Position numbers and translations under genes: made by a program. The notes under the pieces are model-generated. The model saw nothing but the letters and a program-made list of their open reading frames with translations, searched no databases and was not told the DNA's origin. A DNA stretch of 64,000 nt from Azolla caroliniana (lineage: Eukaryota > Plantae > Polypodiophyta): NCBI GenBank assembly GCA_043228905.1, contig JBHGNT010000002.1:3100001-3164000 (forward strand). Direction: 5' to 3'. Shown one piece after another: positions 2,088-63,900 of this stretch (position 1 is its first letter; each line of letters begins with the position of its first letter).

Positions 2088-3718
2088 ACGTGTTCTCGTT
2101 CCCGGCCCCCCGTTGTGCTGTCTTCCGCTTTCCTTGTTCGGCACCACCTGTGCCAAACACCGTCCCGTACTCATGCTTCGCTTTGGCCCTTGATGGCTAC
2201 ATGCACGTCTTCCATTTCGCTTTCGGGTGTGCCCTTTCCGGCTCGACACACCGCTCCTTAACCGGGTGTCCCCGACAACTTACCGTAAAATCACCCTTGC
2301 CATGTCCCGGCTCGCATGGCTTCCAATCCGTTCACGTAACGCCTTGGGTGATCGGTGCGTCTGTTGTTGCCGCCTTCGTCCCCTTGCCGCCACCTTCCAT
2401 TACCCTCAGTCTCACGTTGCCACGTTGGCCGAATAGTCGGGGTCTCCGAACAGGTGTGAAGGATCCTTCTCGGCCTTCATCTTGTTGGCTCACCGACTCG
2501 TGTACCAAGCACGTCCAATCTTTGTCTTGCCAACTCTGTCGGTCGGGTCCGTATCCGGTTTGTGGCCGTCTCGCTGGCCTCATACCTTTCTTTGCTTTGC
2601 TTCCCTTCATCCGATCACGTTCTGCTTCCCTTCTCTCTAGGTCTCACGCCGGCACTTTGTCGCCAGTAGCCGGAGTCTCCGGATTGGTGTGAGTGTCTTC
2701 AAGGGACCTCCCCCTTGTCGTCTTCGGTTGCCCGCCTTGCCGTTTTCCTCTTGCCGTAGTCCCGACCTCTACGTCGGCCTCTTCTGATGGTCACGTTCTT
2801 GCTGCCACCGTTCTCTCCTATAGGACTCACGTCAGCACTCGGGTTGACCGCCGGATCGGTGTGAGGAACTTCGTAGAACGCCCATCCGCAGTCTTTCGCC
2901 TTCGTCCCCTCGCTGCCACTGTTCGTCACTCTAGGTCTCACGCCGGCTCTCAGGCCAACCGCCGGAGTCTCTAGAACCGGTGTGAAGGATACTCCTCGGG
3001 CTCGTCATATCTCTGACCCTTATCCTGGGTCATCTTTCTCCGCAAGTCAAGAGGGTGGCTCGCTCCACACCCTTTCCCGTGGTACCGACGTACTGTGTTC
3101 CTGGTCTCTCCATAGGCCCACTCTCTCCTCCCTCCCGGATCAGTTATCCGGAAGTCCGCTCTGCTCGGTTCTCGTCCGGGTTCGTCCGTCATTCTCTAGA
3201 TTGCCGGGTCCCATTCTCCTACCGCCATTGTTAGTATCTTGGTCTTACGTCGAATCCGATGCCGACCTCCGGAGTCTCTAGATCCGGTGTGAGGTGACCC
3301 ATAGGACCGGTCTTCGCTCTCCGCTTCGTCCCTTGTACTTCCCCCGAACTCGTCGTCGCTCTCCTTCTTGTGCTCCCGCCTCCATCTTCCATCTCTTTCG
3401 GTCTCACGTTGGCACGCTGGACGAATTTCCGAAGTCTCCGGTCAAGATGTGGGGACACTGATTTCGTAACAACTCCCGATGACTCATCCGGGGCCACCGA
3501 CCCTTTTAGTGGTGTCGGTGGAAAGCATCCGCTCTATGATCGATCAAGCCCCGCCTGGGCTTGATTGTCCAATGTCTGGAGTTTCGACTCCGATGCCGAT
3601 TCTGCCGGACTCATTCCGTACCCTCGATCATTTCCCTTTCCATTCTCGACCTTCGCATGGTTGGTCTTTCTCCCTATGTAAAAGAGGGTGGCTTTTTCCG
3701 CACCCAATCTCGTACCGG
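2088..3718 (-). mobile_element. Internal hairpin-array segment of a family-A element (A2), host of A1 and A3
   Basis: Colinear with the arrays at 14.0-16.7 kb, 25-27 kb and 57.6-59.4 kb. Repeated CTCACGCCGG...CGGTGTGAGGA units. Confidence 0.8.
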
Positions 3719-4336
3719 TGTCACGAAGTTTCGTGCGTGCGTGTAGAAGGGCGGGACCACGAGGGTCTTGGACTAGGGAGTGACGGAGCATAGGAAGTCG
3801 TGCTTCACCATTTCCGGGGCATCCCAGAAGCACACCGGAAGCAACCGAAGGGAGAGAGAGAGAGAGAGAGCAGGCACGCAACATTGACTCTCTGTTGCCT
3901 CTTAGGAAACAGGGTCTGTGGTTAGTCCTTCGACCTAGACCCCAAGGTGGGTGTGGAACAACGAACAGAGCTTAATCGTACTACGTAAGGAGGGAACCTA
4001 TGTGACTCCGCTATGTGTAAGGGGAGATGGCTACAACCGACTCCTTCTCATAGGTTGCGCTTATGTACTACACGATTACGTATCCGAGACACTAACACTG
4101 AATTAGCCGTAGCTATACACAGAAACTCAGAGAAGATAGTATTCTATTATCAGGCGTTCTTTTTACAATTCCCAGAATTTACACACACCTCCTTACAAGG
4201 TTTTCTGCCCTTTATATATGCAAGGTCTAATTAGCTGTTCACGCGTACCCGCTTGAACCGTTACATACGTTACGCTTTATATAGTTTCTTATTCCTACGC
4301 TTTTGGCCGTCGGTTACTATTCCGGCGGACAACACC

Positions 4337-4352
4337 TGGCACGCCTGTGGGA
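4337..4352 (+). promoter_or_regulatory. Inverted PBS-like motif TGGCACGCCTGTGGGA at the PPT position of element B
   Basis: 2 nt from the 3' LTR. The first 9 nt are identical to the element's own PBS. No purine tract abuts this LTR. Confidence 0.7.
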
Positions 4353-4381
4353 TAGTGCCTTTGCACATCGGACCCATCCCG

Positions 4382-7314
4382 TTAATCTTCTTCCAAAATG
4401 CCTCGGATGTTTGGCTCTGTTGTGGTGTCCTCGGCCGGAGTTGATGTAGGGCCCGTAGGAGCATCGTGGTGCAGCTCCTCTGCTTGGTCGGCCTGGTTTG
4501 TCCCGGAGTCACCTTCGCCGTGTGCGGGTGGTCCGGGTACGGTGGGCTCTTCTTGAGTTCGTGGACTGGGCTCCGCCGGTAGGGTGCTTGCCGTCGGCTG
4601 CTGCTCTGCCTCTATTGTTACGTCCTCCGCGGTGTTGGCCGTTTTTGTGTGTCCCTGGGCGTGGGGAGGGGATTCCACCTGGTCCGCACTATTTTCCACG
4701 TTTTCTGAAGATGGTGTAGGCTGGACCTTTTGTTGGTTAATCGTTTCGCTGTCTGGTCTTGTGGGGAACTCCGCTCGTTCGTCCCTGCTATTCTCCTCCG
4801 TTGTCCTCGCTGGTGATCGGTCCTGGGGTTCCTCTTCTTCGGCTGGGCCTGGAATTGGTGTCTCGCTGGGTTCCTCGTTTGTATGTGTGTTGCCGGTTTG
4901 TGTGATCTGGTGAAATAGCTCCTCCTGACTTTCACCAAAATTATCTAAGAGTTGTGTGAGTTCTTCGGAGTGTTGGTCTGCTAACGTGCGATAGTCTTGC
5001 GCTAGGTCCTCCTATACGGTCGCAATGCTCTCCTCATTTAGCTTATAAAACCCTCGGTCGTCTTTCCGCCGGTTCTCCTAGTCCGCACGATACGTGTGCA
5101 ATTCCGCTGCTTGGGTTGCCCACGCTATCCATCCTTTGTCCAACGCCGTTTTCAATTGCGATGTGAACCTTTCCCGGTTGGTTTGGAGAAGGATGCGCAC
5201 GTTATCCGTGATGGCCTGCCAGCAGTTGCGTCTTCCATCGACTTCTGGAGATTTGCGATTTCCTACTGTTTAACGGCTGCCGCTTCCTCATACGTGGCCT
5301 TCAGGCCCGCCCACAGCTGAGATTCCTTTTCATGCTGTTTTTCTAATTTCCCCATTTCATTGTTTAGGCAGATTTCGAGTTGATGCCGTCTGTCTTGTTC
5401 GACTACCAACTGTTCATCGAACCATACCTTCTTTTTCTCTAATAAGGCCCGAAGTCCCGCTATTGCCGCCTCTGATTTCTTGGCGTCCTCTCGTAATTGG
5501 GCGTTGTCGTCTTTTGTCCGGATGTGTTGTGCCACCTCCGTAGCTAGTTTCTCTTCAAGCGTTTTTACGGCTTTTCGTCCGTTAGCCCGTATCTCCTTTT
5601 CTCTGTCGGAGGATTGGTGTAGCTCTGCTCGAAGGCGGTCAATTTTGGATTCCGCTAGTTGCACGGCCCTTTTTGCTTTTGAGGCGATGGCGGTCTGAGC
5701 CTCGATTTCTTCTTTGCGAGCGTCGATAACGTGGTTCGGTGGCTGGGTTTCGTGTTGCGCCGTAGTTGTATGAGCTTCTAACTCCGCAATGCGTGCGTTG
5801 TCCTTTTGTAGTTCGGCTTCGGTCAGTTTAACCTTCTTCCAGACATTCTTATTTTTTATGGCCATCTCCTTGGCACCTGTGCTGACCTTTGCCAATTCCC
5901 GATGGACTTCGACTAGGGCCGTGTTTAAGGGTGGTATCTCCATCCCTACTCGCCGTACCCCAGCGTTCCTCTGTCTGCCAACCCTAGCCAGCTGGTCCTC
6001 ATCGTTGCTCTCCGTTGTTTGTGTTAGGGCGCGCTCTATCATTTGTTGTTCTGCATGCTCCTCGGCCATGCGTTGAGCGGGTTTGACCTGTTGTGCTGCC
6101 AGGAACTCCATGAGCTTGAAAGAGGTCCCGAACTGCAAGAGGGCACTGAATTCGTGGGCCGTATCCGGAATATCCGGATATGCCAAAACCTCGCTTTCCG
6201 CCGTCAATACGGCTTTCCCTCGCTGGGACCGAGTCGTAATAATCAGCCACGGCTCCCGGATGATTTCGAAGGTGGTATTGGGCTCTGCTGTTGCGGGGCC
6301 TTCGCCTGCGGTTGGTGCCTCCGGATCTGTGGGGGCATTTTTTACCATCCCCCACCCATCCTTTCTGTCCAATCTACGTCGTTTGGGTCTAGGGCTTTCC
6401 CCTCGTGCTTCGGTGGCTGGTCTGGGGCAGCCTCCATGGGGTGTCTCGGCTATTCCTCCTGCGTCGCCTGTATATCCGGTTGGTCGGTAGGAGGTGTTGT
6501 CCTTGGGTCTAGTTGGGCCGGTTGGGGTTCCTCCTCCCATGCTGGGGCCGCTAATTCCGCTAACCTGCGTTTCGCGGAGCGGGGCGGGGCCGTGGGTTGG
6601 CTACTGGGCTGTGGTGCTGGTAGACCTCGGGGTGGAAACAGTACCGTAAAGTATTGTTGGATGATTGGCCTGAGCTTTTTGCCTGCTTGGTACGCATGCA
6701 AGCCTTCCCATAACGCCGGCCCTGTGATGACCCCCCAGTCGACTGTACGCCCCTCAAAGGTGTCGATAATGATGCCCGCCTTCTGTTTAGGCATCCCGTA
6801 AGCATTGACATGGACGCAGCCTACTTCCAGTAGGAACTTGGCCACTTCACGGAAGAAGGGATCCGGAATCTGTTTTGTTCGGCGGAGGATGAGTATGGGC
6901 AAAATACCGCTGCAGCGCCTCTGTAGGAGGTATTTTGAAATGTCTTTCGCCTAGTGAAGATAGGTCTAACTTCCTCCGAATGGAAGAGTTTGTGACTGTG
7001 TCGATGTTAAGCCGCCTGGCGATGTCCATGGCGTCCGGGTGCGGAGGTGCTTCTGCGACCCGAATATAACCATCCAGGCGCTTCTCCACGAGCCATCGGC
7101 GTAGGGCAGTAGAGATGAAGATCGGCATCGCCAGGGTAGGTTCGTGGAGAGGCGACAGGTAGTAGTGGTGAGTTGGAGCTCTGAGATGTGATGGGGAAGA
7201 AGGTGAGGAGGAGCGATGGGAGCGTTGATAGCTAGACGTTGTGTTTCTGCTTTGTGCAAAAAACCTTCTATTTCCTTCTTTTTGTGGCTTAGGGTTCCTT
7301 GGGCGGTGAGCCAT
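4382..7314 (-). pseudogene. Extra sense-strand ORF downstream of pol in element B, frameshifted: globular N-terminus, long coiled coil, Pro/Thr/Glu-rich tail
   Basis: Consecutive ORF pieces 7314-6847, 6902-6450, 6540-5263 (425 aa, E/K/A/L heptad-rich) and 4699-4382, all inside the LTRs. Confidence 0.7.
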
Positions 7315-7439
7315 TGTGGTGCCGCGTGTTCTTGAACTAGGATTTTGTGCATGCCTTTAGTCGTTTTAATAGTCGCTATCTTCTCTCTTTTTTATTTTTC
7401 TTTTTTTCCTAAAGGTTAGTTACCCCTTATTTTTACATT

Positions 7440-10400
7440 ATAGTACAATTGGGCCTGTCCCTTTTACGCTGCAGCGGGTTCTCCGGCTTTGTCACGTTCG
7501 GCAGTGAATGGGTTAGGTGGTGTAGGGCCTAGGTAAGGTTTGAGCCGAAACCCATTCACTTTTTGCCGTACTATTTCTCCAGCCAGTGTTCCTAGTCGGA
7601 ACGTGCCCTGTTCCGCTCCAATTATCCAGTATGGGCCGGTTCAGTGGAAACGTAGCTTACCCGGCATCTGGCCCATGCATGTTTGAAAAACTAGCACTGC
7701 TCGGCCCACGACGAACTCCTTTTCCCTTGCGCTCTGATGCTGATCGACAAATGCTTTACGCCATCGCTGTTCTTCTTCCAACACAGCCATGCTGTGGACG
7801 CGTTTCTCCCCTAGTTCGAGGAGTTGGTAGAGCCGTTCCTCCTCTGACTTGGCTTCTAATAATCGGTTCCGTACCTAAATGCGCAAACTAGGTACCCGGA
7901 ATTCAATCGGCATTACCGCTTCTAGTCCAAACGCTAGCCGGAACGGTGTTGACCGTATGCTTGTTTTGTAACTAGTTCTGTACGCCCATAATGCGCTCTG
8001 GAGTTTTGGTATCCCAGTCCGTTCAGTTTTTATTGACGGTTTTCTTTAAAATGGTCTGTAAAGTTTTGTTCGTGGATTCCGCTAATCCATTCGCCTGCGG
8101 GTAGTATGGCGTGCTTTTCTTGTGGACGACTGTGTAATGCTGTGTTAGTTCCCGAACCACTGTATTGAGGAAGTGCCTCCCCTGGTCACTAATGACCTCA
8201 ATCGGGCAGCCGAACCGACACCAGATGTGCTCGTACAGAAATTTGGCTGTGACGACCGCCGTATTTTCCCGTAGTGCCTTTGCTTCTACCCATTTGGTAC
8301 AGTAATCCGTGGCTACCAATATGTATTTGTTACCCGTACGGGCTGCTGCTGGTGTGAAGGGCCCCACAAAATCCAATCCCCACATTTGGAAGGGGTCTAG
8401 TGGTAGCACGGGCTAGTGTGGCATCCTTGCGTCCTCCGCGGGCTGACCCATCCGCTGGCACAAATCACACTTTCTACAATACTCGGATGTGTCCTTCTGT
8501 GTTGTTGGCCACCATAAGCCCGCCTGCCATACTTTGCGGGCTGTCACGTTGCCTGCGTAATGGCCGCCGGCCGTGCCGCATTGTGCCTCCCGTAACACTG
8601 CTTCTTTTTCATCCTGACGGACTCCTCGTCGCCAAATGCCGTCACTTCCTTTGTGATATAAATACCCTTCGACCAGGCAGAAGTGACGGCTTCGAACGGC
8701 TAGTCGTTTCTTCTCGTCTGTGCGTAATTGTGGTGGAGGTAGTCCTGTAGTCAAAAAGTACGTCATTTCCATAAGCCATCGATCCGGAAAGGTGGATTCT
8801 GTTTTTTTTGCAATTGTCGCTACTCGCCAGATGTCGGCGTCCGGAAAATCGTCGTCGTCTTTCTGTACTGTTTCTCCACTCACAAGTCTACTCAAAAAAT
8901 CCGCCACTGCGTGTTGCGTCCCTAGCCGGTGCTGAATTACGAACTCGAATTCCTGGAGCAGCAGCATCCACCGCGCCAATTTCCCTGTCAGGGCTTGTTT
9001 CTCTACCAAATACAATAATGCCGAATGATCTACGTGGAACGTGAATTTCTGTCCTAGTAAATAATGTCGGAATTTATTGATGCTATAGATCATCCCTAGC
9101 GCCTCCCACTCTGTTGTGGAATAGTTACGCTCTGCTGCTGATAATTTACGACTTGCGTAGTATACTGGCCTGTACCAGTTTGGTTCGGTAAGTTGCATTA
9201 GCGCGCTTCCTATTGTTGTGTCCGAGGCGTCGACGAACACGTGAAATGGTATCGCCCAAACTGAAGGTTGTACTACGGGGGCCTGTGTAAGCATTATCTT
9301 AAGTGCCTCATATGCCTTATCCTCTGTTGCAGTCCATTGAAAAGGAGTCCGATGTACGGCAGCGTGTAGTGGCGTGGCGAAGTCCGCCAAATACCGTATC
9401 ATCCGACTATGCCACCATATTTGGCCCAAAAACCGACTAAGTGCTTTGGCATTTGTCAGAGTTTTAGCTTGCGTAATAGCGGAGATCTTGTTTGGGTCGA
9501 CCGCTATTCCTTCCTTGCTGACTATGTGGCCCAGGAGAGCCCCGCTGGTCACGCCGAATGCACATTTCGCGGGATTCAGGCTTAAGGGTGCAATGCGGCA
9601 ACGTTCCAGGCAAAGACGTAAGTGCGAGAAATGGTCTTTTGTTCGCCCATATACCGCAAAATCATCTAAAAAGAATGTATTCCCCAAAGATCTCCGTAAT
9701 CGTTCGTTGGAATGTTGCCGGTGCTGTCTTTAGGCCGAACATCATGATGACCGCCACATATACTCCCCAGTCCGTGACAAATGCCATCTTCTCCTGGTCG
9801 TCGGGGTGCGTGCGCACTTGGTTATAGCCACTGAAGCCATCTAAGAAACTGTACATCTCATGGCCTGCGACGGCGTCCAGCACGCTATCAGTGAAGGGTA
9901 AGGGAAATGCATCCGTAATGGTTACGACGTTTAATTTTCGGTAATCCATGCATACCCGTATTTTGCCGTTTTTCTTTGGGACAACCACTATCGGGCTAAG
10001 CCATGTCGGTTGTTTTACTGGTCGTATGAACCCAGCCCTCAGCAGCTTGTCAATTTCTTCTTTCACACGGGTCGCGTAATTGGGGTTCATGCGGTAGCGA
10101 CGCTGCTGGACAGGTTTCGCGTTCGTTGCTAAATTGATCTTATGCTGATAGAACTTGGGATCTAACCCCTTCATGTCCTCATGAGCCCACACGAACACAT
10201 CTTTATATTCTGTGAGTAGTGCGATCATTGTGGTTCTCTGGTCCAGCCTCAATTCCTTTGCTATGGAGAGGAACCGGGGTTCCGATCCTGTACCCACATT
10301 CACTTCGTCGAGAGCGGAAGCGGTGACCTGTCGTGAAATCTCCATTTCCCTTTCGGAGGCCGCCCGTGCTCTGCTAAGTTCCAATATGGACTCTGGGTTT

Positions 10401-10990
10401 GGTTCGTACGGCTCTTCGCTCGGAACAATGGCCGTAGTATATTCTGCCGCAATTGCGATGACATCTATCTCAAACAGCGGAATAATCCGAGGATGTTCGT
10501 CAAGGTACGCTTCCAATTCGGCATCCTCCACCCTAGGTAGCATATTGATGTCTTCCGCATATAACGGTGTTATCCCCTTAGGTTGGGGCGTGTTGCCTCC
10601 TGTAGGAACACGAACCTTGATGTGTTCCTACCGAAAACTGATACACTCGTGTTGCCAGCTCTGCTTGATATTTGCTGTCCGAAGCCATGGTCTGCCCAGA
10701 AGCACTGGGTACGCTCCAGGCGCGTCCAAAGCGAGGACGACCGCCGATATGTCGAAGCGGTGTCCACCCACGATGATGCCTATTTTGCGAATTAGCCCCA
10801 ACGGCCGCACTGATTGGGTATCTGCCATGCGAAGCCAGAATGGACATGCCTCCCATTCGGAAATGCCCAGCTGTTCGCAAGTTTTCGCGCTAATCACATT
10901 GACGCCTAAGCCGCCGTCGATTACACATCCAGGGACTTCCTGTCCGTGCAATATTACTGTAATGGCCGGGTTGTGTTAATCTACCACTGG
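7440..10990 (-). pseudogene. pol: pol of element B: protease, RT, RNase H, integrase with GPY/F motif (frameshifted)
   Basis: CVIDGG; KNGKIRVCMDYRKLN; YSFLDGFSGYNQV; FLDD; VFVDAS...YYASRKLSAAERNYSTTE; WGLDFVGPF...YYPQANGLAESTNK; GPYWI. Confidence 0.93.
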
Positions 10991-10999
10991 TGGTCCCTC

Positions 11000-12562
11000 G
11001 CTGACGTCAATCAGGTTTGTGGCAACGCTTGCCCCGGTCATGCCCACCACCTGTGCTTCCATGGTCTGGCGGAAACATGGAACTAGCTGTAGTAGTTTTT
11101 CCATAGTTAGCGTGATTTCACAGCCCGTTAACACCTACCAAATGGGGTCCGGCCCCAGTTTTTCGTTCTCTGTTTGCTTCATTGCATTCGCGGACTCCTG
11201 CCTCATACATTCCGTATTGGCCGCGTTTGCTTTTTCCACCCAGGCTTGGGCTTGTCGTCGTACCTCGTCCTGCGCAGCCCAATCCACCGTTTTCGTTTGC
11301 TGGCATGTGGTGACTTGTTGCACCTCCGCCATAATCGTGTTGACGGCGGGCCCCTTTCCCTTGCGTGCTGGGCATTGTGTGGCATAATGTCCGGGTTGCT
11401 AACAAATAAAACAGTGGATGCTTGATTCTCCCTTCTCAGCCCCACGTGGAGTGTGCCATTCTCCGGGCGCTACTTGCTCTTTGCGGTCCGGCCTCGTTTG
11501 TCGAGACGTACGCGGTGGCTGCTGTTGATCCTGGTGCCGCTCATCCCCCGACCTTTCGTCGTAACGCCGGTGATCCCTATATTCTTGAGGCTTACCTCGA
11601 TAGCCATTGAAGCCGCCCCGTTTGTTCATCGGGCGTTGATGTTCGTATCGCCGGCCTCCTTTGGCGTAACTCGGATGTCCACGATAATCCTCGTCCTCCG
11701 GGTCCTCCTCCTCGGACTCGTTGTGATTCCGGCGATTCTGGGTGTACCTGTCCTCCCGCGGGTTGCGATCCTTATACCGGGGTCGGTCTTCTTGCCTCCT
11801 TTGTTCCACCCGATGTGGTTGCCGCTGTGTGTCCACAGTGCGGATTGCGGGCGTGGCTCTATTTAACATATTGTACTTGCATTGGTCAACTGTGTGAACC
11901 TTCGAGTGGCAGATTGGGCAATGGATTCGCATATTGAACTCCACCGCGGAATTCCCCGAGTTCAAGCAAATCGTACACTGGATTGCCTGACGAAATTGGT
12001 GTTCCTCATCCTGGGGTAACGGTTGTCGTAAGGATGACATCGAGAACCTCTCCTGCTCGTCATCCAACTCGAGCTGTAACGCTCGTTCAATCACCATATC
12101 CGCCGTTTCCCCTTTCACGCTATTGCTGTTGAGCGTTGCCTTGATGGGCCGACGTAACGCTGCCAGAAATGTTTCCCGTGCCTCCTCCTCCTCGGGGCTT
12201 CGATCTAGTTTCCGTCGTAAATTTTGGAACCGTAAGCTGAAGTCTGCTATTGTCTCAGTCAGTAGTTGCTTAATTGTATAAAACTGCCCAAGAATCTCGC
12301 GTTGTGGAACCCTCCGGTGAAATAAACGCAAGAAGGCGGACTGGAGCTGATCGAAGGTTATTATGGCCGGTCAATCCATCTGTGAATGCCAGAACGTCGC
12401 ATGCCCATCTAATGTTAATCCGAACTCCGTCATTTTCGACTAGTGTGCCACCATCTCGGAAAGGTTTTGTGCCATGTGGTTCGCATTCCAAACGTTCAAG
12501 AACATGCGAACATGAGTTACGGCGTCGGTTTCGCCGTTAAAGCGGGGGTAGGCAAAGGCCAT
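11000..12562 (-). pseudogene. gag: gag of element B with zinc knuckles
   Basis: MAFAYPRFNGE; ETIADFSLRF (major-homology-like region); CPICHSKVHTVDQC; CFIC*QPGHYATQC. Confidence 0.85.
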
Positions 12563-12831
12563 CGTGGGAGCTACGGTGGATCGGAGAAGGTCACCGGGAG
12601 GCTGCGGTAAGCGTGGTCCCCTCACCTCGTTGAGGTATTTGGGGAGCAAGGACTCCTCTTTGCGCTCCTGGCAGGTATTACTGGGGTCGCCGATGCGTGG
12701 CTTTTGCGAGAGCGTTCTTTTGCCTGGCGTGTGACGGACCTTGTTACTGGCCGGTCTTGTCTTGTTGGTTCTCTGAGTCGTCTGCGGCTAAACATCCATT
12801 CGTTGTTGCTCGTCTGTGAGGAAACACAGAT

Positions 12832-12845
12832 CACCGGGCGTGCCA
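12832..12845 (-). promoter_or_regulatory. Primer binding site of element B, tRNA-Arg-like (TGGCACGCCCGGTG)
   Basis: 4 nt after the 5' LTR. Complementary to ...CACCGGGCGTGCCA, resembling the plant tRNA-Arg(UCU) 3' end as recalled. Confidence 0.8.
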
Positions 12846-15285
12846 AAAGTGTTGCCTCTTAGGAAACACGGTCCGTGGTCAGTCCTTCGACCTAGACCCC
12901 AAGGTGGGTGTGGAACAACGAACAAAGCTTAATCGTACTACGTAAGGAGAGAACCTCTGTGACTCCGCTGTGTGTAAGGGGAGACGGCTAAAACCGACTC
13001 CTTCTCATAGGTTGCGCTTACGTACTACTACGATTACGTATTCGAGACACTGACACTGAATTTGCCGTAGCTATACACAGAAACTCAGAGAAGATAGTAT
13101 TCTATTATCAGGCGTTCTTTTTACAATTCCCAGAATTTACACACACCTCCTTACGAGGTTTCCTGCCCTTTATATATGCAGGGTCTAATTAGCCGTTCAC
13201 GCGTACCCGCGTGAACCATTACATACGTTACGCTTTATATAGTTTCTTATTCCTACGCTTTTGGCCGTCGGTTACTATTCCGGCGGACAACACTCTCGCA
13301 CACACACACAACACCGACCGAACTCGCACCCTCATGTACATAAGCAAGAAAGAAACGCTAAGACACACACACACACACCAACATAGACACGAATATGCAC
13401 AACCAAATGTATATGTATTTACAAGACAGCGAGATTCAACACCGACTTCGAGCCGGACCTAGGTCGCATAGGATACAACCGTTGTCTAATGCCAAGCCGC
13501 CGGTCGGGGAGCTCTCGGGCTTGTCGCGCCGAGCGGGGTCTTGCACATAGTACAGGGCAGAAAACCAAAACGCTAGATGCCAAGGCTCGACGGACAGAAG
13601 GACGAAGAAGAAGTAGAGGAGAGCAAGAAGAGACCCTAAAACCAGAGAAGAGAAAGAAAGGAAAGAAAGAGAGAAAGAGGAAGAGAGAACGTCTCTTCAA
13701 CTAACGGTATACCCTGCTAATACAAAAATGGGCAACCCCTTCACAAGAGGCGCTCCCTTCCTTTTATAGAACAAGGAGGGAGATGCATTACAATGTGGGA
13801 TAAATCCCGACTTACATGGGATTCTCTGTCCCGACTTGACTACTCTTCGGCGCCATAAAGGCGCCCTCGTTATTCACACTAAATGTACAAGGGTGAGCGC
13901 ACATGCTGCATCCCGCCGATATAGCCAATATTTCCCGGTTTCCGCCTTTGGCCGAAATTCTTCACGACATCCGCCCCCACCAAACTGCACGTTCACCGCT
14001 ACGTGCCAAATCCGGTGAAGGGTGAGAGATTTCGGCCGGTGAGAAACTGGTCAACCGTAATCCGCAACCCGGCTCGTTGCCGGTTTGAATCATCGGCTTC
14101 GGTTCTTCCTTCGCGCTTACCTGCTCGTAGGCTCGTTTGACCCGTCGATGGGTCCTTCACAGCGATCTCCGTAGTACGCGTACTTCCGCTGGCCCTTGTT
14201 CGGCTGTATGCATGCCCCGCTCTCCGCCGTATGCCCGATGTCCTTCGCTTGAGGAATGCCCGTAGTGGTCCGCTTGGCCTCCGTCGACCATTCGTGTTGA
14301 CATGATTGCCGTCCCATGTTTCACGTTGCCTTCGTCCTCCCTGCCGCCACCTTCCTTCTCCATGGTCTTACGTCGCCACGTCGGCTCGAACCGCCATGGT
14401 CTCCGGAACGGTGTGGAGGATCCTTCTCTGGCCTTCTACGCACTACCTCCAAACCGCGCAACCCATCTTCGCGCTCGCCTTTCCGCTCTAGCACCTCCGT
14501 GTGCCGCATACCCTCGTCCGTTGTTTGGCACTGCCTGTGCCGCACTCCGGTTCATTGCACGGCTTGTCGGCCCCTTTCCCGTCCAGATTGTGCATCGCCG
14601 CTCATCCGCATACCGGTGTCCTCTGCACCCGAGGAGCACCCCGCACTAGCCTGCTTGGCCGTTTTCGTCTTGCGCTGCTACAACAGATCCTGAGTCTTTC
14701 GCCCCCGTCTTACCCATTCGCGATCCGCTATCTCATGTCACCGGGTCTCGTTCCCTACCGCCACCATCCTTCTCCCTAGGTCTCACGCTGACTCCCGTTA
14801 GCCGGCTGCCGGAGTCTCCGGATCGGTGTGAGGGTCCCATAGGACCGGACTCCGTTTCTCTGCTTGTTGTTCGGGTGTCTTCCGTGTAGCCGGGTCCCGC
14901 CTTCGTGTTGCCGGGTCCCGTTTCCCGCCGCCACCAACCCTCTCTCTCGGTCTCATGTTGCCACGTTGGCTGAACTGCCGGAGTCTTTGGTTCGGTGTGG
15001 GGATCCCGTAGGACCAGACTTCCTTATGCCCACTGACCTTGCCGGAAGATCCAAAATGGTCCGTAGTCGCCTCATACCTCCTTGCCGTTCGTCACTTCCT
15101 GTCTTCCGATAATGTTCACTTGCCGCCACCGTCCTTTCCTATAGGACTCACGCCGGCTCTCGGGCTGACCGCCGGATCGGTGTGAGGATCTTCGTGGGAC
15201 CTCGGTTTGCCCGCCTTGCCACCACCACCGCCCGTCGCTCTAGGCCTGACGCCGGCACTCTGGCCAACCGCCGGAGCCTCTAGGG

Positions 15286-15901
15286 TGTCAAGATTCGAAC
15301 TCTTGACACGACCATGTTATAATCTAGTATTATGAGTTAACCAAGATATCTAGTACTAGTTATGTATGTAATTGGTCGTTATTATTTTGCTAGCATCATG
15401 TGCATAGTTGCTCCCTTGTAGTATTTACACTTGGCACATGCATGCATACCTACATGCTCTATTGTAGATTCACATGCGTGCAACAAGTATGACTGCCATG
15501 TAGTATAAATAGAGGAGTTCACCTTCAAGGAATTCAAGGTGAACAAACTGTCACGGATCATAAACTCAAGAGACAAGCAAGAAGATAACCAAATGGACAA
15601 GAAAGAAGATAGTATTAAAGGAAAGACTCCATAACTGGTGTTGTTCACCTTGAATTCCTTCAAGGTGAACTCCTCTATTTATACTACATGGCATGCATAC
15701 TTGTTGCACGCATGTGAATCTACAATAGAGCATGTAGGTATGCATGCATGTGCCAAGTGTAAATACTACAAGGGAGCAACTATGCACATGATGCTAGCAA
15801 AATAATAACGACCAATTACATACATAACTAGTACTAGATATCTTGGTTAACTCATAATACTAGATTATAACATGGTCGTGTCAAGAGTTCGAATCTTGAC
15901 A
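15286..15901. mobile_element. Foldback/MITE-like element, 616 bp, 261-bp TIRs (15286-15546, 15641-15901), TG..CA ends, TSD TAGGG
   Basis: Arms are reverse complements with ~3 mismatches. TAGGG at 15281-15285 and 15902-15906. AT-rich island inside the GC-rich A3 array. Confidence 0.92.
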
Positions 15902-17937: not shown

Positions 17938-18470
17938 GCTCCCTTGCCGCCCTTTATGTCGGGTTCACCAAATATGTCGCGAAGTTTCGCGCGTGTGTGT
18001 AGAAGGGCGGGACCTCGGGGGTCTTGGACTAGGGAGTGACGGAGCGTAGGAAGTCGTGCTTCACCATTTCCGGGGCATCCCAGAAGCACACCGGAAGCAA
18101 CCAAAGGGAGAGAGAGAAAGAGAGAGAGCAGGCACACAACATTGACTCTCGCACACACACACACAAGACAGACCCAACTTGCACCCTCATGTACATAAGC
18201 AAGAAAGAAACACTAAGACACACACACGTACACCAACAGAGACACGAATATGCACAACCAAATGTATATGTATTTACAAGACAACGAGATTCAACACCGA
18301 CTTTGAGCCGGACCTAGGTCGCATAGGATACAACCGTTGTCTAATGCCAAGCCGCCGGTCGGGGAGCTCTCGGGCTTGTCGCGCCGAACGGGGTCTTGCA
18401 CAGAGTACAGGGCAGAAAACCAAAACGCTAGATGCCAAGGCTGGACGCACAGAAGGACGAGTGCGGAATC

Positions 18471-45596: not shown

Positions 45597-45597
<1 letters not shown>

Positions 45598-45627: not shown

Positions 45628-45632
<5 letters not shown>

Positions 45633-54800: not shown

Positions 54801-57800
54801 CGGAGGGCAAATAGTAGCACAAGCTTTGGCGGATGATTCTTTCATGTTTTTACAAGCCTCACAGGAGAATCTTGAGAAGGGGGTGCTTGTATGGAATCAG
54901 TTTGCATTGGCTTCCGGATTACATATTAATTAGACGAAGTCTAGTCTCATATCATGCACTGAAAGGGATTTGGAATGTTTAGGATGGCAAGGATCCGTGG
55001 TGAAGAAAGGCTCTATTTTTCGACACTTGGGCTATCCATTAGGAATGAATGTTACAAATGGTCAATTGATTGAATGGATGTCTAGTAAGTTGAGGGATAA
55101 GTTCATCTATTGGAAGTAACAATCTTGGTCATTTCATGTTCGCTTGAACGTTGTACAATGTATTATGGAACCCATGATATTATATTACTTGCCATTATTG
55201 CCATGCACAAAGAAGGCGTTGAATTCTGTTTTGCAACCTCTTCGATATTTGTTGTGGAAGAAGAGGGATAAGATGGGAATCACATGGATTGCTTGGAATC
55301 ATCTAGCAACCCCTAAGCGATTGGAGGGGGTTGGAATATTGAACTTATCCATGCATATGATGGCTCGTAGAACTCACAACCATGGATATCTATTGTTCAA
55401 TATTTCATTGAGAACAAGGGTTTAACACATGGGAAGACAACGATTAAGGCTTCATGGTGGCAATTACTGAATGGATGTATTTCACTTAGGATTCTGGGTT
55501 CTTCATGTGTTCAACACTCTTGTTATGTGTATGGAAACCATCATCTAGTAGAGAGCATTGTAACTCTTTGCAAAAAGAGTTACTTGTGTCTTCTCGGTTA
55601 TTATGTTGGCTAGGAAATGAGAGATTGCATTCTCAATTTAATCGTTTGTTTCATTTGGGGGTCAAAGAGGTGGGAGATATAGTTGAGGTTCCATCTCAAA
55701 GAATTTTGGAGTTTACTGAAGCACGACAATTATCACGCATCCCGCCTAATTATGGGTTTATTTGGCAACAACTATAGAATATTGCATTGATGCAAAGTCC
55801 CTTACCTCTACAAACAGGAGAACAACCGTGGATTGATTGGAGTTTGAGGGGTCAAACACCATTGTTACAAGTGACTACTAATCTTTTGTATCATTGTTCT
55901 GTTGTCGCGTTGTTACGCGCGTGCATGTAGAAAGAGGCGGGACCACGGGGGTCTTGGACCAAGGAGAGAGATATGGAGAGAGAGAGAGAGAGAGATGCAG
56001 ATACACAGAAAGAGGTTAAGAGCAAGAAAACAAGAATCCAATTACTAAAATTAATAGCTTACAACTCGAACAGTTACAACCGGCAACCCGGTAATGGGCC
56101 CGACACAGGGTCCTACTCACGCACACAGATGACTGCCACACAACTCCAGGAACCAAAAGGGGGAGAGCCTCTGCTTGAAGCACACGGGCTATCAACGAAG
56201 CAGATGCAGCGAACTCCCAACACCCATAGAGACCGATGACTAGAGGAGGAGAAGAGAGAGCTCGACATTTGGTTCTACAACAACACTTCCTCCTCGCTAA
56301 CGTGCGATGCCCTTTCCTCCTTCTCTCCTCTCCTTAAATAGTTCCCCCAAAAGGGGGGGGGATGCCTCTTTCCCTAGTTAAACCACTTTATTCCCTGTCC
56401 CTTTCGACAAAGATATGCACAATCCCTTAATAAATGTGTACTACTTAGTATTTACATCAGCCGATCCATTTATGAATCATGTACAAAATATCAAATCATG
56501 CGCCCATCCGTGTAAGAGCCACTTCATGCACCTTTTTCTCCGATTCCGCCTATGCCCGGTTTTCTTCACGACATCCACCCCCACCAAACCGCGCATCCAC
56601 CGGCATGCGCCAGAGACGAGTAGATACCGAAGAAAACCGGCTTCACTCGTCGTTCTCTGATTCTCCACCGGGCCCAAACTGATCGTCGTTGTCGCTCCCG
56701 CTCGCAGGCTCCGGCTCGTCTTCGAACCGCTTCTTTTGAACGCTTTGATCCGCTTCCTGGCCACCGGCACCGCTAACTGTGTCACGTCGAGCTCCGCAAG
56801 GTGGTACGTGCCATTGTCGCGTTATTATGCGTGTGCGTGTAAAAGGGCGGGACCACGGGGGTCTCGGACTAGGGAAGCAAGGAAGCCGAGAAGACGATTC
56901 TGGGCGCGTTCCGGAAGCAATCGAACGGGAGAGAGAAAGAGAGAGAGCGCGCGCTTGACCCCGACTCACCCCACACACACACACACTACGCCGACCCAAC
57001 TCACGCCCTTATGTACAGAAACGGAGGCAAGAGAACACCAAAACACCCGCGCAAACACCGGACCCCAACAGAGACATGAATATGCACAGTCAGACACAAA
57101 TGTATATATATAAATGGAAGAATACAATCCTGGCTTCGTGTTGAACCAAGGTAGGTTACAGCAGTCGTGGGCTGCCAAGCCACCGGTCGGGGAGCTCTCA
57201 GGCTTGTCACACCGAGCGGGGTCTTGCGCAGGCGACGAGCTGAGGCAAACCCTACACGAACACCAAGGGGGAAGAAGAAGAAGAAAAAGAAGAAAAAGAA
57301 GAAGAGGAAGAAGAAATGTAACTAACCCTAAACTAACGGTATACCCTCTAACGCAAAAATGGGCAACCCTTCTACAAGGGACCATCCCTTCCTTTTATAG
57401 AACAAGGAGAGGGATGCGTTACAATGTGGGATTAATCCCGATTTACATGGGATTCTTCGTCCCGACTTAACTCCTATTATTCACACAATTATACGAGGGT
57501 GAGTGCACATGGTGCACCCCGCTGATGTAGCCAATATTTCCCGGTTTTCACCTCTGGCCGAAATTCTTCACGACATCCGCCCCCACCTAACCGCACGTCC
57601 ACCGGTTCGTGCCAAATCTAGTGAAGGGTGATTTCGGCTGGTGAGAAACCGGTCTTCCGTAATCCGCATCCCAACTCGCTGCTGGTTTGAACCGTCGATT
57701 TCGGTTCTTCCTTCGCGCTTACCTCCCCGGAGGCTCGTCTGACCCGTTGATGGGTCCTTTGCCGCGATCTCCGTAGTACGCGTACTTTTGCTGGCCCTTG

Positions 57801-59596
57801 TTTGGCTGTATGTACGCTCTGCTCTCCATCGTACGCCCGATGTCCTCGGCTTGAGGAACGCCCGTAGTGGCCCGTTTGGCCTTTTCCATCTTGCGTTGCT
57901 GCAATAGGTCTTGAGTGTTCCGCTTCCTTTGTTCGGCACCCTGTAGTCATGCTTCGATCCGGCCTGCGATGACCACTTGCGAAACTCTTGTTCCGTCCCA
58001 GGTGTGCCTTTCCGGCCTGATACACCTCCCTGTGTTTGCCCCTACCGGCTCGTTCCGAAATCGCAACCGGGTGGTGAGGATTTTGCACTTCGATCGCCCC
58101 GTCTTACTGACCTTTGTCAATGTCGGGTCCCGTTCCTTGCCACTACCTTCCTTCTCCCTCGGTCTTACATTGCCACGTTGGCTGAACAACCGGAGTCTCC
58201 GGAACCGGTGTGAAGATCCCATAGGACCGGTCTTCATTTCGTTGCTTACCGAAATTCGGGTCTTTTGTTCGAGTCCCTCTCGGACTCTCCTCGTGTCTTC
58301 CGCGTAGTCGAGTCCCGTTTCCTGCCGCCATTAGCCTTCTCTCGAGGTCTCACGTTGCCACGCTGGCCGAGCTGCCGGAGTTTCCGGTCTGGTTTGGGAA
58401 TCCCGTAGGACCGGACTTCCTTATGCCCGTGACCTTGCCGGTAGGTCTGATTTGGTTAGTAGCCGTTTTCGCCGGCCTGGTACCTTCTTTCTCTGCTTCC
58501 GTCATACGATCACGTTCAGGTGCCGCCACCGATCTCTCCTATAGGACTCATGCCTGCACTTGGGCCGACAACCGGATCGGTGTGAGGATCTCCGTAGACC
58601 GCCCGTTCGTAGTTCTTTGCCTTCGTCACCTCGCCGCCACTGTCAGTATCTTGGTCTTACGTCGACCGCGTCACCGGCTGCCGAAGTCTCTAGAACCGGT
58701 GTGAAGGATCCTCCTTGGGCCTTCGATTTATCTTCCTGACCCTGTCCTGGGTCGTCCCTTTCCGCATGCCGAGAGGGTGGCTCGCTCCACACCCTCTCCC
58801 GTGGTACCGACGTACCGTGTCCTCGGCCTCTTCGTAGGCCTACTCTCTTCCTCCCACCCGGAATGGTTATCTGGGAGTCCGCTCCGCCCGGTTCTTGTCC
58901 GGGTCCGTTCGTCAATCTCCGGTGTGCCAGGTCCCGTTATCCTGTCGCCACCGACCTCTCCTACAAGACTCACGCCCGCACTCGGGCCGACAGCCGGATC
59001 GGTGTGAAGATATCATGGGACCGATCTTCGTTCTCCTCTTCATTTTCCGTAGTTCTCCCTAACTTGTCGTCGCTCTCCTCGCTGCGTTCCCGCCTCAACC
59101 TTCCATCTCTTTCGGTCTTACGTTGCCACTTCGGGCGAATAGCCGCAGTCTTCGGATAGGATGTGGCGTAACCGATTTCATAACGTCTTTCGACGACTCA
59201 TCCGGGCCACTGCCCCTTTTATTGGTGTCGGTGGATAGCATCCGCTCTGTGATCAATCAAGCCCCGCCTTGGTTTGATTCTCCAATGTCCGGAGTTTCGG
59301 CTCCAATGCCGACCTTGCCAGACTCGCTCCAAACCTTTGATCACCTTCTTCCAATTCCCGACCTTCGCCCGGTCGGTCTTTCTCCCCATGTAAAAGAGGG
59401 TGGCTCATCCCGCACCATCTCTCGTATTGGCACCTTCATGCCGAATCCGGCCCCGATCGAACAATCCACGACCCGATTACATCCCACCCGCATCGGAGCG
59501 TCGCGTCGCGCAGTTCAGTGCCCGGTCGGGTCGTCCCTTGGTCTCTTCGTCGACCTTTTCGCGGGCCATCTCCCATCCATCTTCGCTAGCATCGTG

Positions 59597-60898
59597 TCAG
59601 GACTCCTCGATACCGTCATCCATCTCCTCGGTCTCACTTGGGCTTAAAGGCTCGAGCGCCGAGTTCTCCGGAAACGGGTTCGAGGGCTTTCGTCCGCTCC
59701 TTCCCCGTATCGTCTCGTCGGTGATTCTTGGTCTCTCGCGGCTGCCTTCCTCCTCTTGGGACTCACGTGGGCACTCGGACTTGACCGCCGTCTTCTCGGG
59801 AGCAAGTGTGGGAAGACGCAAGGAATTGCTCGTCCGTTTTACGCCCTTGTCCGTAGCCACCGGCTCTTCGTGGTCGGCGGTCGTCTCCTTACCAATCGCG
59901 CATGCCCTGTCTGGGCTTGCTTCTCCAATGACCGGGGTTTCGGGCTGACACGCCCGACACCACTGGTTCCAATGTTCCGATCCCGCGATCGGTATCTCGG
60001 CCTCCTCCTTGGTCGTTCTAGCTCCGCAAGTTGAGAGGGCGTTTTGTTCTGCACCCCCTCTCGTGGTACCGTGGTACCGATCTTCTGTCATCGCGTGGGG
60101 CAGGTCCATCTCCTTAGTCTCAACTTGCGGCCTCGATCTTTCCTCTTCCTTGAGCATCGCCTCGAGAGCTACGTACACCTCCGCAATCCTGGCGCCAACG
60201 CCGACCCTTGCCGACTCTCTTTGTTGTTCGGCCTCTTCCCACTGTGATGGCATGTCGTCGCGCGCCTTCCTCTTAGCCTTCTCAGCTCGCTCATCGTCTA
60301 GCCATTGGCACACCCTTCCGACCTTCGACCAGTCCTCCGTAAGCCCATTCGCTCCATCATCGTTATCGAGCTCAATCCCAATGGCCTCCCATTCCACTCG
60401 GTCGATCGATCTGACGAACAATAGGACTTTGTCCGCCCCCACCAAACCTTGTTCCCGCTCCGGGAGCCGAGCAAGTCGTCGCTCGAACTCTCGGAATGCC
60501 TTCATCGCGCCCCGGTGGGTCTTTGCCGATGCTACCCACTGGTCGAAGTCGTGTCGTCCCCGGCTCTTCCGCCGTCCTCCATATGCCTGCAGGAGCACCT
60601 CTTCAAAGGCCTCCCACGAACTATGAGCTTGTCGGAGCTCCTTCACTTCCGCGTGCATACGGACGGCGACAACCCGACAGAAGAACTCCAGCCTCAACGC
60701 TTTGTGCACGTCTCGCTCCTCCATTTCCGCGTTGTAGGCTTCCAAGTAAGATGGGACTTTGTTCCCGTTGAAACGGTTGACTCTTTCGACCACTCGCTCA
60801 ACCACTTGTTGCGTTGCTTCCCGCCTCATCACCACTCGTGCCGACTCCAACACCACTTCGACCACCATCACCGCGAGTTCGTCGTCTTTCGACTCCAT
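59597..60898 (-). CDS. gag: Gag-like protein of A6 (433 aa; capsid-like N-half, acidic low-complexity tail, no CCHC knuckle)
   Basis: Open ORF starting just after the PBS. Aligns by eye with C1 gag (RFNGNKVPSYLEAYNAEM vs QFDGRNITKFLDAYKREM; QGLVGADKVL vs QVLLEEDKTL). Confidence 0.8.
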   Translation of the reverse strand: MESKDDELAVMVVEVVLESARVVMRREATQQVVERVVERVNRFNGNKVPSYLEAYNAEMEERDVHKALRLEFFCRVVAVRMHAEVKELRQAHSSWEAFEEVLLQAYGGRRKSRGRHDFDQWVASAKTHRGAMKAFREFERRLARLPEREQGLVGADKVLLFVRSIDRVEWEAIGIELDNDDGANGLTEDWSKVGRVCQWLDDERAEKAKRKARDDMPSQWEEAEQQRESARVGVGARIAEVYVALEAMLKEEERSRPQVETKEMDLPHAMTEDRYHGTTRGGAEQNALSTCGARTTKEEAEIPIAGSEHWNQWCRACQPETPVIGEASPDRACAIGKETTADHEEPVATDKGVKRTSNSLRLPTLAPEKTAVKSECPRESQEEEGSRERPRITDETIRGRSGRKPSNPFPENSALEPLSPSETEEMDDGIEES

Positions 60899-60914
60899 CC
60901 TCCCTTGCCGCCTT

Positions 60915-60931
60915 TCACGTCGGGTTCACCA
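60915..60931 (-). promoter_or_regulatory. tRNA-Trp primer binding site
   Basis: Complement TCACGTCGGGTTCACCA matches the plant tRNA-Trp(CCA) 3' end as recalled. Conserved in A1, A3, A4 and A5. Confidence 0.85.
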
Positions 60932-63900
60932 AAGATTTCGCGTTGTTACGCGCGTGCGTGTAGAAGGGCGGGACCACGGGGGTCTCGAACTAGGGAAGAG
61001 GGGAAACCGAGAAGACGATTTCGGGCGTGTTCCGGAAGCAACCGAACGGGAGAGAGAAAGAGAGAGAGTGCACTCTTGACCCCGACTCACCCCACACACA
61101 CAGACTGCGCCGACCCAACTCACGCCCTTATGTACAGAAACAGAGGCAAGAGAACACCAAAACACCCGCGCAAACACCGGACCCCAACAGAGACATGAAT
61201 ATGCACAGTCAGACACAAATGTATATGTATAATTGGAAGAATATATATAAAGGTAGGTTACAGCAGTCGTCGACTGCCAAGCCGCTGGTCGAGGAGCTCT
61301 CGGGCTTGTCGTGCCGAGCGGGGTCTTCCGTAGGCGACGAGCTAAAGCAAACCCTATGCGAACACCAAGGGGGAAGAAGAAGAAGAAGAAGAAGAGGAAG
61401 AGGAAGAAGAAATGTAACTAACCCTGAAACTAACGGTATACCCTCTAACGCAAAAATGGGCAACCCTTCTACAAGGGACCATCCCTTCCTTTTATAGAAC
61501 AAGGAGAGGGATGTGTTACAATGTGGGATTAATCCCGATTTACATGGGATTCTTCGTCCCGACTTAACTCCTATTATTCACACAATTATACGAGGGTGAG
61601 TGCACATGGTGCACCCCGCCGATGTAGCCAATATTTCCCGGTTTCCGCCTCTGGCCGAAATTCTTCATGACACCGTTGTCGTTCGCGCTCGTCACCGTGT
61701 AGGGCCCGAACCATCTCCTAGAGAACTTTCGCACCGCCTTGTGCTGATTGTCAAGGCTGTTGTCGTATACCAAGACCCAATCGCCTTCCTCGATCTTCTT
61801 TGGTCGCAGCTGGTGCGTCCAGTTGAACCGGGTCTTCTTCCGCTCCCTTGCCGCTCGCAGCTTTTCCTTCGCCCGTTTCATGTCCTCTGGCCTCCGCTCG
61901 AGTTGGCGAATCCGCACCGCCAGCAACTCCTCCCGGCTCATTTCGTCCTTCCAATCAACCGCCGCCCATGGATAAACCGTCCGTTGCATCGTCATGATCG
62001 GCTTCTGTCCGTACATCAGCTCTGTCGGCATACACCTTGTCACCGAACTGTGCGTAGTTCGGTCCGCCCATAGTGCGTAAGGAAGGAGTCGCGGCCAATT
62101 CCCGACCTGCCCTCCGCATGCACGCACCAACGCCTTTACGATCGGCCCGTGCCCACGTTGTACCTTTCCGTTCGCCTTCGGATTGTACACCGTACTGAGG
62201 GAGAGTTTGACGCCTAGCCGATCGAACAACTCCTCAGCCTCCCGCGTATCCAGCTCTCCCCGGTCCGCCACGATCCTCCCGACGCACCCGTACTGACACA
62301 CTACTTCTTCGATCAGGAACCGGCATACCGCCGCGGGTTTCTTGCTCTGCAGTGCACGACCTTCCACTCTCGTGAAATGCCACCAGTAGTTCCTCCTGTT
62401 CTTCTTTCTTTGTCACTACTCGGAGCGGGATGTCGTCTCTCTTCTTTGGGTGCCTCCATATGCACAGTTTGTCTCACAGGAAGAACCGGTACGCCTTCTT
62501 CCGTACCCGGCTCGGCTCTTCTCTCATCCATGCTGCGTCTGGCGTCATCGTCCGTAGGAACCTCCCGATTCGGAGCCACTCCCTGTCGTACCTGCTTTCG
62601 TCGAATTCGTTAAGCGTCGGAGTGTCCCTTTCCCTCGTCGCTACGTTAGCCGACCCGAAGAAGTCCTCGCCGACTTCTTCGTCATCCGAAACCATGTCGT
62701 CTTCGTCGTTGAACCTTGCTCTCGAAAGCATGTCGGCCATGGTGTTATCCTTTCCGGAGATGTGCCGTATCTCCGGGTTCAGGGACTTAATGTATGCTAT
62801 CCACCGAAGCATTGCTAGGTTCGGCGTCGCGCATCCGGAAACCATGCCGAGTATCAGCAGGCAGTCCGTCTCGATGATCACCTCCGTCCCGATCAGATAG
62901 TCCTTGTCGGTCTGGACTGCTGAAACGACACCCCAAATCTCGCGCTTAACTTGGGCTTATCCTCGCTGCCGCTCGCTCAATACCTTCGCCCCGAACCGGA
63001 TCGGGAATCGTACGTTGTCCTTGTCCTCCTGACTGATTACCCACCCAATCCCGGTTGGGCTGGTGTCCACCGTCACGCACATGGGAACATCCTTGTCGTA
63101 AACCTCTTTACGGAGACCCGACGCTACCGTAAGAGCCTCCTTTAGTCTCTGTACCAACTCCGTGTGCTCCGTCCTCCACTCAAAGCTACGCCCCTTTTTC
63201 AATAGTCCGTAGAGGGGTTCCGCGACATGTGCGTAGTATGGGATCTAGATGTGATAGAACGTGCATGCTCCCAAGAATCTGCGGACCTCCGTGACCGAAT
63301 TGCAGTCATGCTTCATCATGGACATGGCTTCCACCTTGGCCGGAGACGGTTTCCGACCGTATGGTCGGCATAGGTGCCCGATGACCATGATCTCTGGTTG
63401 CCCGATGGCCAATTTTTCCCCGGAGAAGGTGAGCCTCACGCCTTCTAGTCTCTGCAGCACCTTCTCGCAGTCATCGATGTGAGTCGTCACGAAATTCCGA
63501 CATCCGTCCGGCCCGATTGCCTCGTCTTTTCCTCCACCGGGCATCCCATGATTGGGATGTCGTCTAAGAATGGCATAGTGATGTCCGGGATACAATCCCT
63601 GAGCATTTTGTTCATCGAGTTCACCATGTGAGCCACTGAGTTCGTCCCTCCTTGTGGTAGGGTAAACATCCGCACTAGGCCAAGAGGAGTCCGCATCGTC
63701 GTAATGTCTCTGCTCTCTACGGCTAGTTGGAACTGATTGTACCCCAAGTATAGATCACCGACAGAGTAAATCGACCTTCCGGCGAAGGCCTCCGTGAACT
63801 TGTCTATGGTTGGTCTAATTCCTACGTTACGGATGGTCACCTTCTTGACTAGTTGCAGGTCCTGAATGAAGTGCAGCGTGCCGTTCTTCTTCGGCACCGT

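What the first reader, a model, noticed from the sequence alone, without database searches (positions are those of the whole stretch)
2088..61676. CpG-centred 4-bp target sites for all seven A/C insertions
Seen, both flanks: ACGT (21959/33190), ACGG (23717/29349), CCAT/CCGT (56811/61673). Seen, one flank only: ACGT (2088), CCGG (3715), ACGT (34195), CTGT (55899). For the last, the uninterrupted sister L1 (38523-38526) shows the ancestral site was CCGT. Consensus is [AC]CG[TG], even in CpG-poor hosts (L1, copia gag). Family B and copia TSDs here are 5 bp without CG. Known: plant LTR elements mostly make 5-bp, weakly specific TSDs. The C2 integrase ends after GPY/F in an acidic tail with no chromodomain. 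Inference: an integrase with intrinsic CpG (possibly methyl-CpG) specificity, which would steer it into heterochromatin and into its own CpG-rich copies.
Basis: partly seen in the sequence, partly recalled or inferred. Interest (0 to 1): 0.78.

Follow-up and report, generated by a model that had tools for sequence, protein, structure and literature searches.

The report
Phygy-type retrotransposons inserting at CpG
These plant jumping genes really do land on CG pairs and duplicate four bases, but this habit is already published for the moss Phygy lineage, to which they likely belong; whether their integrase senses methylation is untested.

Summary
All ten cited flanks are at the given coordinates, the three two-sided sites are 4-bp (not 5-bp) duplications, and uninterrupted sister copies carry the site once. 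Outside the window, 27 of 36 independent LTR 5' flanks have a central CG (background 3.5%); the other 9 are TG, CA or TA, as expected from CpG decay. But this is not new: Neumann et al. 2019 list Phygy (moss, non-chromovirus Ty3/gypsy) with 4-bp NCGN duplications in 100% of 186 elements, mostly tRNA-Trp primers and no extra domain. Families A/C match on domain order, no chromodomain, no aRH and NCGN; direct placement against REXdb Phygy could not be run. Corrections: the consensus is wider (VCGB, mostly ACGT); the copia gag host is not CpG-depleted; the C2 integrase is dead; self-nesting is no higher than CG density predicts. Family A is gag-only and likely borrows the C integrase. Methyl-CpG sensing has no direct support here and remains the open, testable question.

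The parts
1345..2087 (-). Family A 5' LTR (element runs off the window start); PBS follows it
2088..2091 (+). One-sided target flank ACGT, in family A internal sequence
3715..3718 (+). One-sided target flank CCGG; sisters have TCGG/TTGG uninterrupted
3719..18460 (-). Family A element: 3' LTR (3719-3892 + 13293-13969) split by family B; 5' LTR cut at 18460
3893..13292 (-). Family B gypsy element (control): 5-bp duplication CTCTC
18473..34194 (-). Coding element C1: 5' LTR 33427-34194, gag-protease-RT, pol cut at about 18473; interrupted in gag by a family A element
21959..33193 (+). Family A element 21963-33189 with ACGT/ACGT duplication; LTRs 93% identical
23717..29352 (-). Family A element 23721-29348 with ACGG/ACGG duplication; LTRs 95% identical
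34195..34198 (+). One-sided target flank ACGT of C1, in a copia gag (34212-34781, minus strand; CpG o/e 0.93)
36422..36860 (.). Solo LTR of family B (control): 5-bp duplication AGAGG
38523..38526 (-). Empty site CCGT in the sister L1, homologous to 55899-55902
46507..51814 (-). Copia element (control): 5-bp duplication GAATG
55899..55902 (+). One-sided target flank CTGT of C2 in a CpG-poor L1 (decayed CCGT)
55903..64000 (-). Coding element C2: 3' LTR 55903-56573, acidic integrase tail, broken integrase, RNase H and RT; runs off the window end
56811..61676 (-). Family A element 56815-61672 with CCAT/CCGT duplication, inserted just after the GPY motif of the C2 integrase; LTRs 94% identical
60914..60931 (-). 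18-nt primer binding site, exact complement of a CCA-ending plant small RNA listed as miR894
59597..60925 (-). Gag-like ORF of family A (442 aa); no pol in family A

Best explanation
Families A and C are chromodomain-free Ty3/gypsy retrotransposons that insert at CG with a 4-bp duplication, and they likely belong to the Phygy lineage, whose integrase likely reads the CG sequence itself. Shown: 4-bp duplications centred on CG, T avoided at the first position, shared LTR ends, PBS and PPT in A and C, gag-only content of A. Inferred: intact C-type copies elsewhere supply integrase for both families; the two active sites cut 4 bp apart and bend the target sharply at the central step, as in the foamy virus intasome; base-specific contacts narrow the general pyrimidine-purine preference to CG (candidates: the conserved C-terminal loop before the GPY motif and the D-R-G-E-L-D helix cap); TG/CA flanks arise afterwards by methyl-C deamination. 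Accumulation in CG-rich repeat nests would follow from CG density and selection, without methylation sensing.
For: Window sites. Outside set chosen by LTR start only and validated by downstream LTR similarity: 27 of 36 CG, 6 TG, 2 CA, 1 TA; background CG 3.5%, p = 2.5e-32; first base never T (0 of 36). 8 of 9 LTR 3' flanks CG; 5 solo LTRs with both flanks are 4-bp pairs. Among pyrimidine-purine centres CG is far above its 14% share (p = 4e-16) and TA is rare (1 of 36, p = 2e-4), so flexibility alone does not explain it. CpG decay in LTR pairs (55 of 196 sites; 14% per copy; non-CpG 81 of 2178) is of the order needed for the TG/CA flanks. Phygy row: 4 bp, 100% NCGN, tRNA-Trp 81%, no extra domain. 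No chromodomain, aRH or MBD in 11 of 11 relatives scanned. PFV consensus VYRB and central bend. ZAM integrase binds CGCGCg directly (abstract).
Against: No Physcomitrium Phygy reference could be aligned (none named among listed hits). The tRNA-Trp identity of the PBS is recalled, not shown (searches gave nothing). No methylation data, so methylation-blindness is an inference. One unvalidated, LTR-like row has AAGT (L127). The candidate residues rest on alignments; the C-terminal loop is only one residue longer than in Ty3. The outside set is a partial scan of short-read assemblies and may come from few host species.
Confidence: 0.8

Rival explanations
1. The integrase needs or strongly prefers 5-methyl-CpG at the centre of the target, so it is a chromodomain-free reader of silenced DNA.
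For: All 7 window sites lie in other transposable elements; the region shows CG and CHG decay typical of methylated DNA; the lineage has no chromodomain; Phygy-type domains are enriched at centromeres of a liverwort (passage); a Copia family with a captured MBD exists (search listing).
Against: No methyl-binding domain in 11 of 11 relatives scanned. CG-centred targeting occurs in ZAM, whose fly host has little or no CpG methylation (recalled), and in Ginger1. Outside flanks span CpG o/e 0.26-1.23 and 25 of 35 hit no repeat held here. Decay after insertion is expected either way.
Confidence: 0.12
2. A host methyl-DNA or chromatin protein tethers the intasome (for example through the acidic tail) and positions it on CG.
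For: A short acidic tail is conserved (161 of 239 relatives with the preceding motif; median 37 residues, mean 38% D+E).
Against: Tethers explain regional bias, but base-exact symmetry (V-CG-B) points to the active-site region; the tail varies in sequence and has low model confidence.
Confidence: 0.04
3. Only the general preference of 4-bp integrases for bendable pyrimidine-purine steps, seen in CG-rich nests.
For: 36 of 36 centres are pyrimidine-purine, and T is avoided at position 0, as in PFV and MLV.
Against: TG, CA and TA are each about twice as common as CG in the flanks, yet CG is 27 of 36 and TA 1 of 36; where checkable, TG/CA flanks pair with CG (CCAT/CCGT, CTGT/CCGT, ACGG/ATGG).
Confidence: 0.03
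4. Chance or mis-set LTR boundaries.
For: Only 3 of 7 window sites are two-sided; at 61677 the host begins with TGTCG like the LTR.
Against: PPT- and PBS-anchored LTRs fix both ends; empty sisters fix the 4-bp length; the outside set was chosen blind to flanks.
Confidence: 0.01

Closest known systems
Phygy (non-chromovirus Ty3/gypsy of Physcomitrium patens; Neumann et al. 2019, PMC6317226; passages and Additional files 2 and 5 read)
   Same: 4-bp NCGN duplication, no chromodomain, no aRH, PBS likely for tRNA-Trp, seed-free plant relatives.
   Different: Described as a P. patens clade; here the named relatives are liverworts, ferns and Chara. Gag-only family A is not part of that set. The motif here resolves to VCGB with ACGT commonest. 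Placement against the reference was not possible.
4-bp TSD class in 12 plant genomes (PMC6911290; passages)
   Same: 4-bp duplications with GC-rich centre, typical of Phygy; Phygy often nested in other elements.
   Different: Pooled logo across families; no CG-specific or methylation analysis in the passages seen.
Ginger1 DNA transposons (PMC2836005; passages)
   Same: Gypsy-type integrase with GPY/F; 4-bp CCGG (75%) or CCGT/ACGG (24%) duplications; TGTNR termini.
   Different: DNA transposons with TIRs and no RT; animals; CCGG rather than ACGT is commonest.
ZAM of Drosophila (PMC2527525; abstract)
   Same: Gypsy integrase with intrinsic CG-containing target specificity shown in vitro.
   Different: Longer CGCGCg site; insect errantivirus.
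Prototype foamy virus intasome (PMC4422553; passages; best structural matches)
   Same: 4-bp stagger, VYRB consensus, T avoided at position 0.
   Different: Weak YR enrichment (about 63% over random) against near-exclusive CG here; Glu where PFV has Ala188.

Membership tests
Phygy | Ty3/gypsy domain order RT-RH-INT within LTRs | tested here: met
Phygy | No chromodomain | tested here: met
   C2 tail; 11 of 11 relatives; no PF00385 in the listed rows
Phygy | No extra aRH domain | tested here: met
   No PF13456 in 11 of 11 relatives scanned
Phygy | 4-bp TSD with NCGN motif | tested here: met
Phygy | PBS for tRNA-Trp | tested here: inconclusive
   18 of 18 complement to a CCA-ending plant small RNA (miR894); Trp identity recalled; no tRNA gene found in 31 loci
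Phygy | Length 7.7-10 kb with polyprotein filling the internal part | tested here: inconclusive
   Neither C copy is complete in the window; A copies are shorter and gag-only
Phygy | RT/RH/INT group with P. patens Phygy in a tree | not testable with these tools
   REXdb files too large to read; tree holds no P. patens row and shows only a clade with liverwort and fern sequences (98/98)
TatI (4 bp, tRNA-Trp) | aRH domain in 100% | tested here: not met
Chromoviruses | Chromodomain; mostly tRNA-Met PBS or self-priming | tested here: not met
Ginger1 | DNA transposon with TIRs and no RT | tested here: not met
   LTRs, PBS, PPT and RT present
Methyl-CpG-directed integrase | Preference for methylated over unmethylated CG | not testable with these tools
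   No methylation data or assay; only assembled contigs among 18 runs

The most novel reading that the evidence does not exclude
The Phygy-type integrase, conserved from liverworts to ferns, is a direct methyl-CpG reader: a conserved Gln/His/Lys loop of its C-terminal domain recognises 5mCG at the bend, giving chromodomain-free targeting of silenced DNA at single-base resolution.
Probability: 0.12. Interest if true: 0.75.

Novelty: new member of a known kind. Interest (0 to 1): 0.28.

Why it matters
As it stands: it extends the one known sequence-specific plant LTR lineage beyond P. patens, refines the motif to VCGB, and shows that a gag-only family shares the target. If methylation sensing were true, it would be a new route by which a retrotransposon finds heterochromatin without a chromodomain, and a CpG-specific integrase of use as a tool. 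Intact-looking pol relatives (P0132, P0124) make the question testable.

Tried and rejected
No whole genome was held, so no genome-wide logo. Laying contigs of 5 runs did not return individual LTR flanks; it gave only a few loose ends that fit uninterrupted gag copies. Viral contigs held no relative of the pol and no tRNA gene at the PBS motif (0 of 31 loci). Genome contigs gave 107 chance matches, 0 validated, used only as control; the control has 41 of 148 CG against 27 of 37 (Fisher p = 7e-7) and is a poor background because it is mostly bacterial coding DNA. Three protein searches listed no P. patens protein (best 120 of 163, 141 and 1139 hits shown). The RLG2 transcript in PMC7466625 is cut at 400 letters. 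Atlas search gave only generic RT clusters. A paper on methylation and retroviral integration, recalled, was not held. The integrase model (pLDDT 74) matches PFV and Ty3 but says nothing on CG reading. An 'extended loop' idea was dropped: the loop is one residue longer than in Ty3. PMC6839031, PMC12810828, PMC12877858, PMC5605234, PMC13469084, PMC9033089 and PMC8282616 (passages) added nothing on this question.
Full report
Anatomy. The window is a nest of retroelements. Seven insertions share LTR ends, a PBS and a PPT. Five are family A, whose internal part carries only a gag-like ORF, 22-26% identical to the gag of a liverwort relative, and no pol. Two are coding elements: C1 (5' LTR 33427-34194, gag-protease-RT, cut at about 18473) and C2 (3' LTR 55903-56573, integrase, RNase H, RT). 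Family B (RT 27% identical to C), a solo B LTR, a copia element and L1 copies serve as controls. No whole genome was held. Named relatives of the C proteins are from Riccia, Calypogeia, Adiantum, Ceratopteris and Chara, so the host is likely a seed-free land plant; earlier AI notes on this genome say fern, which I did not test.

The observation. All ten flanks are as stated. The three two-sided sites match over 4 bp and not 5. Uninterrupted homologues carry the site once for 21959, 23717, 55899 and 56811; for 3715 sisters have TCGG or TTGG; for 2088 the one sister did not align at the junction. Six of 7 sites show CG on at least one flank and the seventh is CCGT in the sister L1; with local CG frequencies P(at least 6 of 7) = 2.4e-7. 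B and copia duplications are 5 bp without CG (3 of 3).

Independent test. Of these, 21 had the PPT upstream (3' LTRs), 37 were validated as LTR starts by downstream similarity alone, and 63 were not validated. One validated row (L119) is a PPT variant and was dropped. In the remaining 36, the centre of the adjacent 4-mer is CG 27, TG 6, CA 2, TA 1; background CG is 3.5% per dinucleotide (p = 2.5e-32); position 0 is A 21, G 8, C 7, T 0; position 3 is T 27, G 4, C 4, A 1. Five unvalidated rows look like real LTR starts by eye and read GTGT, ACGT, GCGG, ACGT and AAGT; they are not in the count, and the last is a real exception if the row is genuine. Nine LTR 3' flanks gave 8 CG and 1 TG; five complete solo LTRs gave ACGT/ACGT twice, ACGT/TCGT, ACGG/ATGG and GCGT/ACGT. 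In LTR pairs of family A, 55 of 196 CpG sites read TG or CA in one copy, against 81 differences in 2178 other sites, so decay of about 14% per copy is of the order of the 10 decayed flanks in 45. The preference is therefore real and may have been near-absolute at insertion.

What does not hold. The consensus is VCGB rather than [AC]CG[TG]. The copia gag host has CpG o/e 0.93; only the L1 (0.44-0.47) is CpG-poor. The C2 integrase lacks residues 755-842 of the intact relative P0132, which hold the HHCC finger and first catalytic Asp, so it cannot be the enzyme that made these insertions in its present state; its acidic, chromodomain-free end is nonetheless typical of the lineage (161 of 239 relatives, median tail 37 residues).

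Mechanism. Shown: 4-bp stagger, CG centre, symmetric avoidance of T at position 0 and A at position 3, shared ends in A and C. From established work (PMC4422553, passages): integrases with 4-bp duplications bend the target at a central pyrimidine-purine step, PFV's consensus is VYRB, and Ala188 and Arg329 make base contacts. Flexibility alone is not enough here, because TA, TG and CA are each commoner than CG in the flanks yet TA occurs once. Inferred: base-specific contacts add the CG rule. Candidates are the D-R-G-E-L-D motif (131 of 188 relatives; Glu aligned to PFV Ala188) and the loop before the GPY motif (Gln 148, His 137, Lys 149 of 150); that PFV Arg329 lies in the equivalent loop is recalled. 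The model and fold search confirm only a PFV/Ty3-type integrase. Methylation dependence cannot be read from sequence, since insertion sites become methylated and decay afterwards in either case; ZAM (abstract) and Ginger1 (passages) show that gypsy-type integrases can be CG-specific by themselves.

Comparison with what is known. Neumann et al. 2019 state that Phygy elements have an insertion preference for NCGN, the single exception among plant lineages; their Additional file 5 gives 186 elements, 4 bp in 100%, tRNA-Trp in 81%, no extra domain. A and C meet four features (domain order, no chromodomain, no aRH, NCGN); the PBS is the exact complement of the small RNA listed as miR894 (PMC5846777 Table 3), and that this is the tRNA-Trp end is recalled. 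Placement against P. patens sequences was not possible because Additional files 1 and 3 could not be read; these may bear on membership and on the exact motif. In a 49-row RT tree C1 and C2 sit in one clade with liverwort and fern sequences (98/98), with B far outside. Phygy domains were also assigned in a liverwort and found enriched at centromeres (PMC12885004, passages). My searches found no paper that tests whether Phygy integration depends on methylation, nor one that reports the motif outside P. patens; the library lacks most subscription journals.

Verdict. A correct and well-supported observation of a published trait, in what is likely a further member of the Phygy lineage. Added value is modest: wider host range, a sharper motif, a gag-only passenger family and candidate residues. 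The methyl-CpG reading stays open at about 0.12. Interest 0.28.

Noticed in passing
window 4335-4400 and 12810-12849 (minus strand): Family B has no polypurine tract before its 3' LTR; an inverted copy of its own PBS motif sits there instead, as earlier notes on this genome report.
   Followed up: partly
window 59597-60925, 27176-28138, 17359-17817 (minus strand): Family A is a high-copy gag-only non-autonomous family (TR-GAG-like; name recalled) with the LTR ends, PBS and PPT of family C.
   Followed up: partly
window 33427-34194: The C1 LTR begins and ends with a 12-bp inverted repeat, longer than the usual TG...CA.
   Followed up: no
window 18460-18473: The 5' LTR of a family A element is fused directly to the cut pol of C1; both outer parts are lost, probably by deletion.
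   Followed up: no
window 15286-15901: Element with 261-bp, 99% inverted arms (MITE-like) inside a family A internal region.
   Followed up: no
window 24146-24611 and about 31100-32480: Extra high-copy sequence inside an A LTR and inside an A internal region, the latter partly like the copia LTR.
   Followed up: no
L090:1-3707: Three family LTR starts or ends in tandem, each LTR preceded by a PPT and followed by a PBS: a tandem LTR array.
   Followed up: no
window 60914-60931: The PBS is fully complementary to the abundant plant small RNA annotated as miR894, which could take part in silencing these elements.
   Followed up: no
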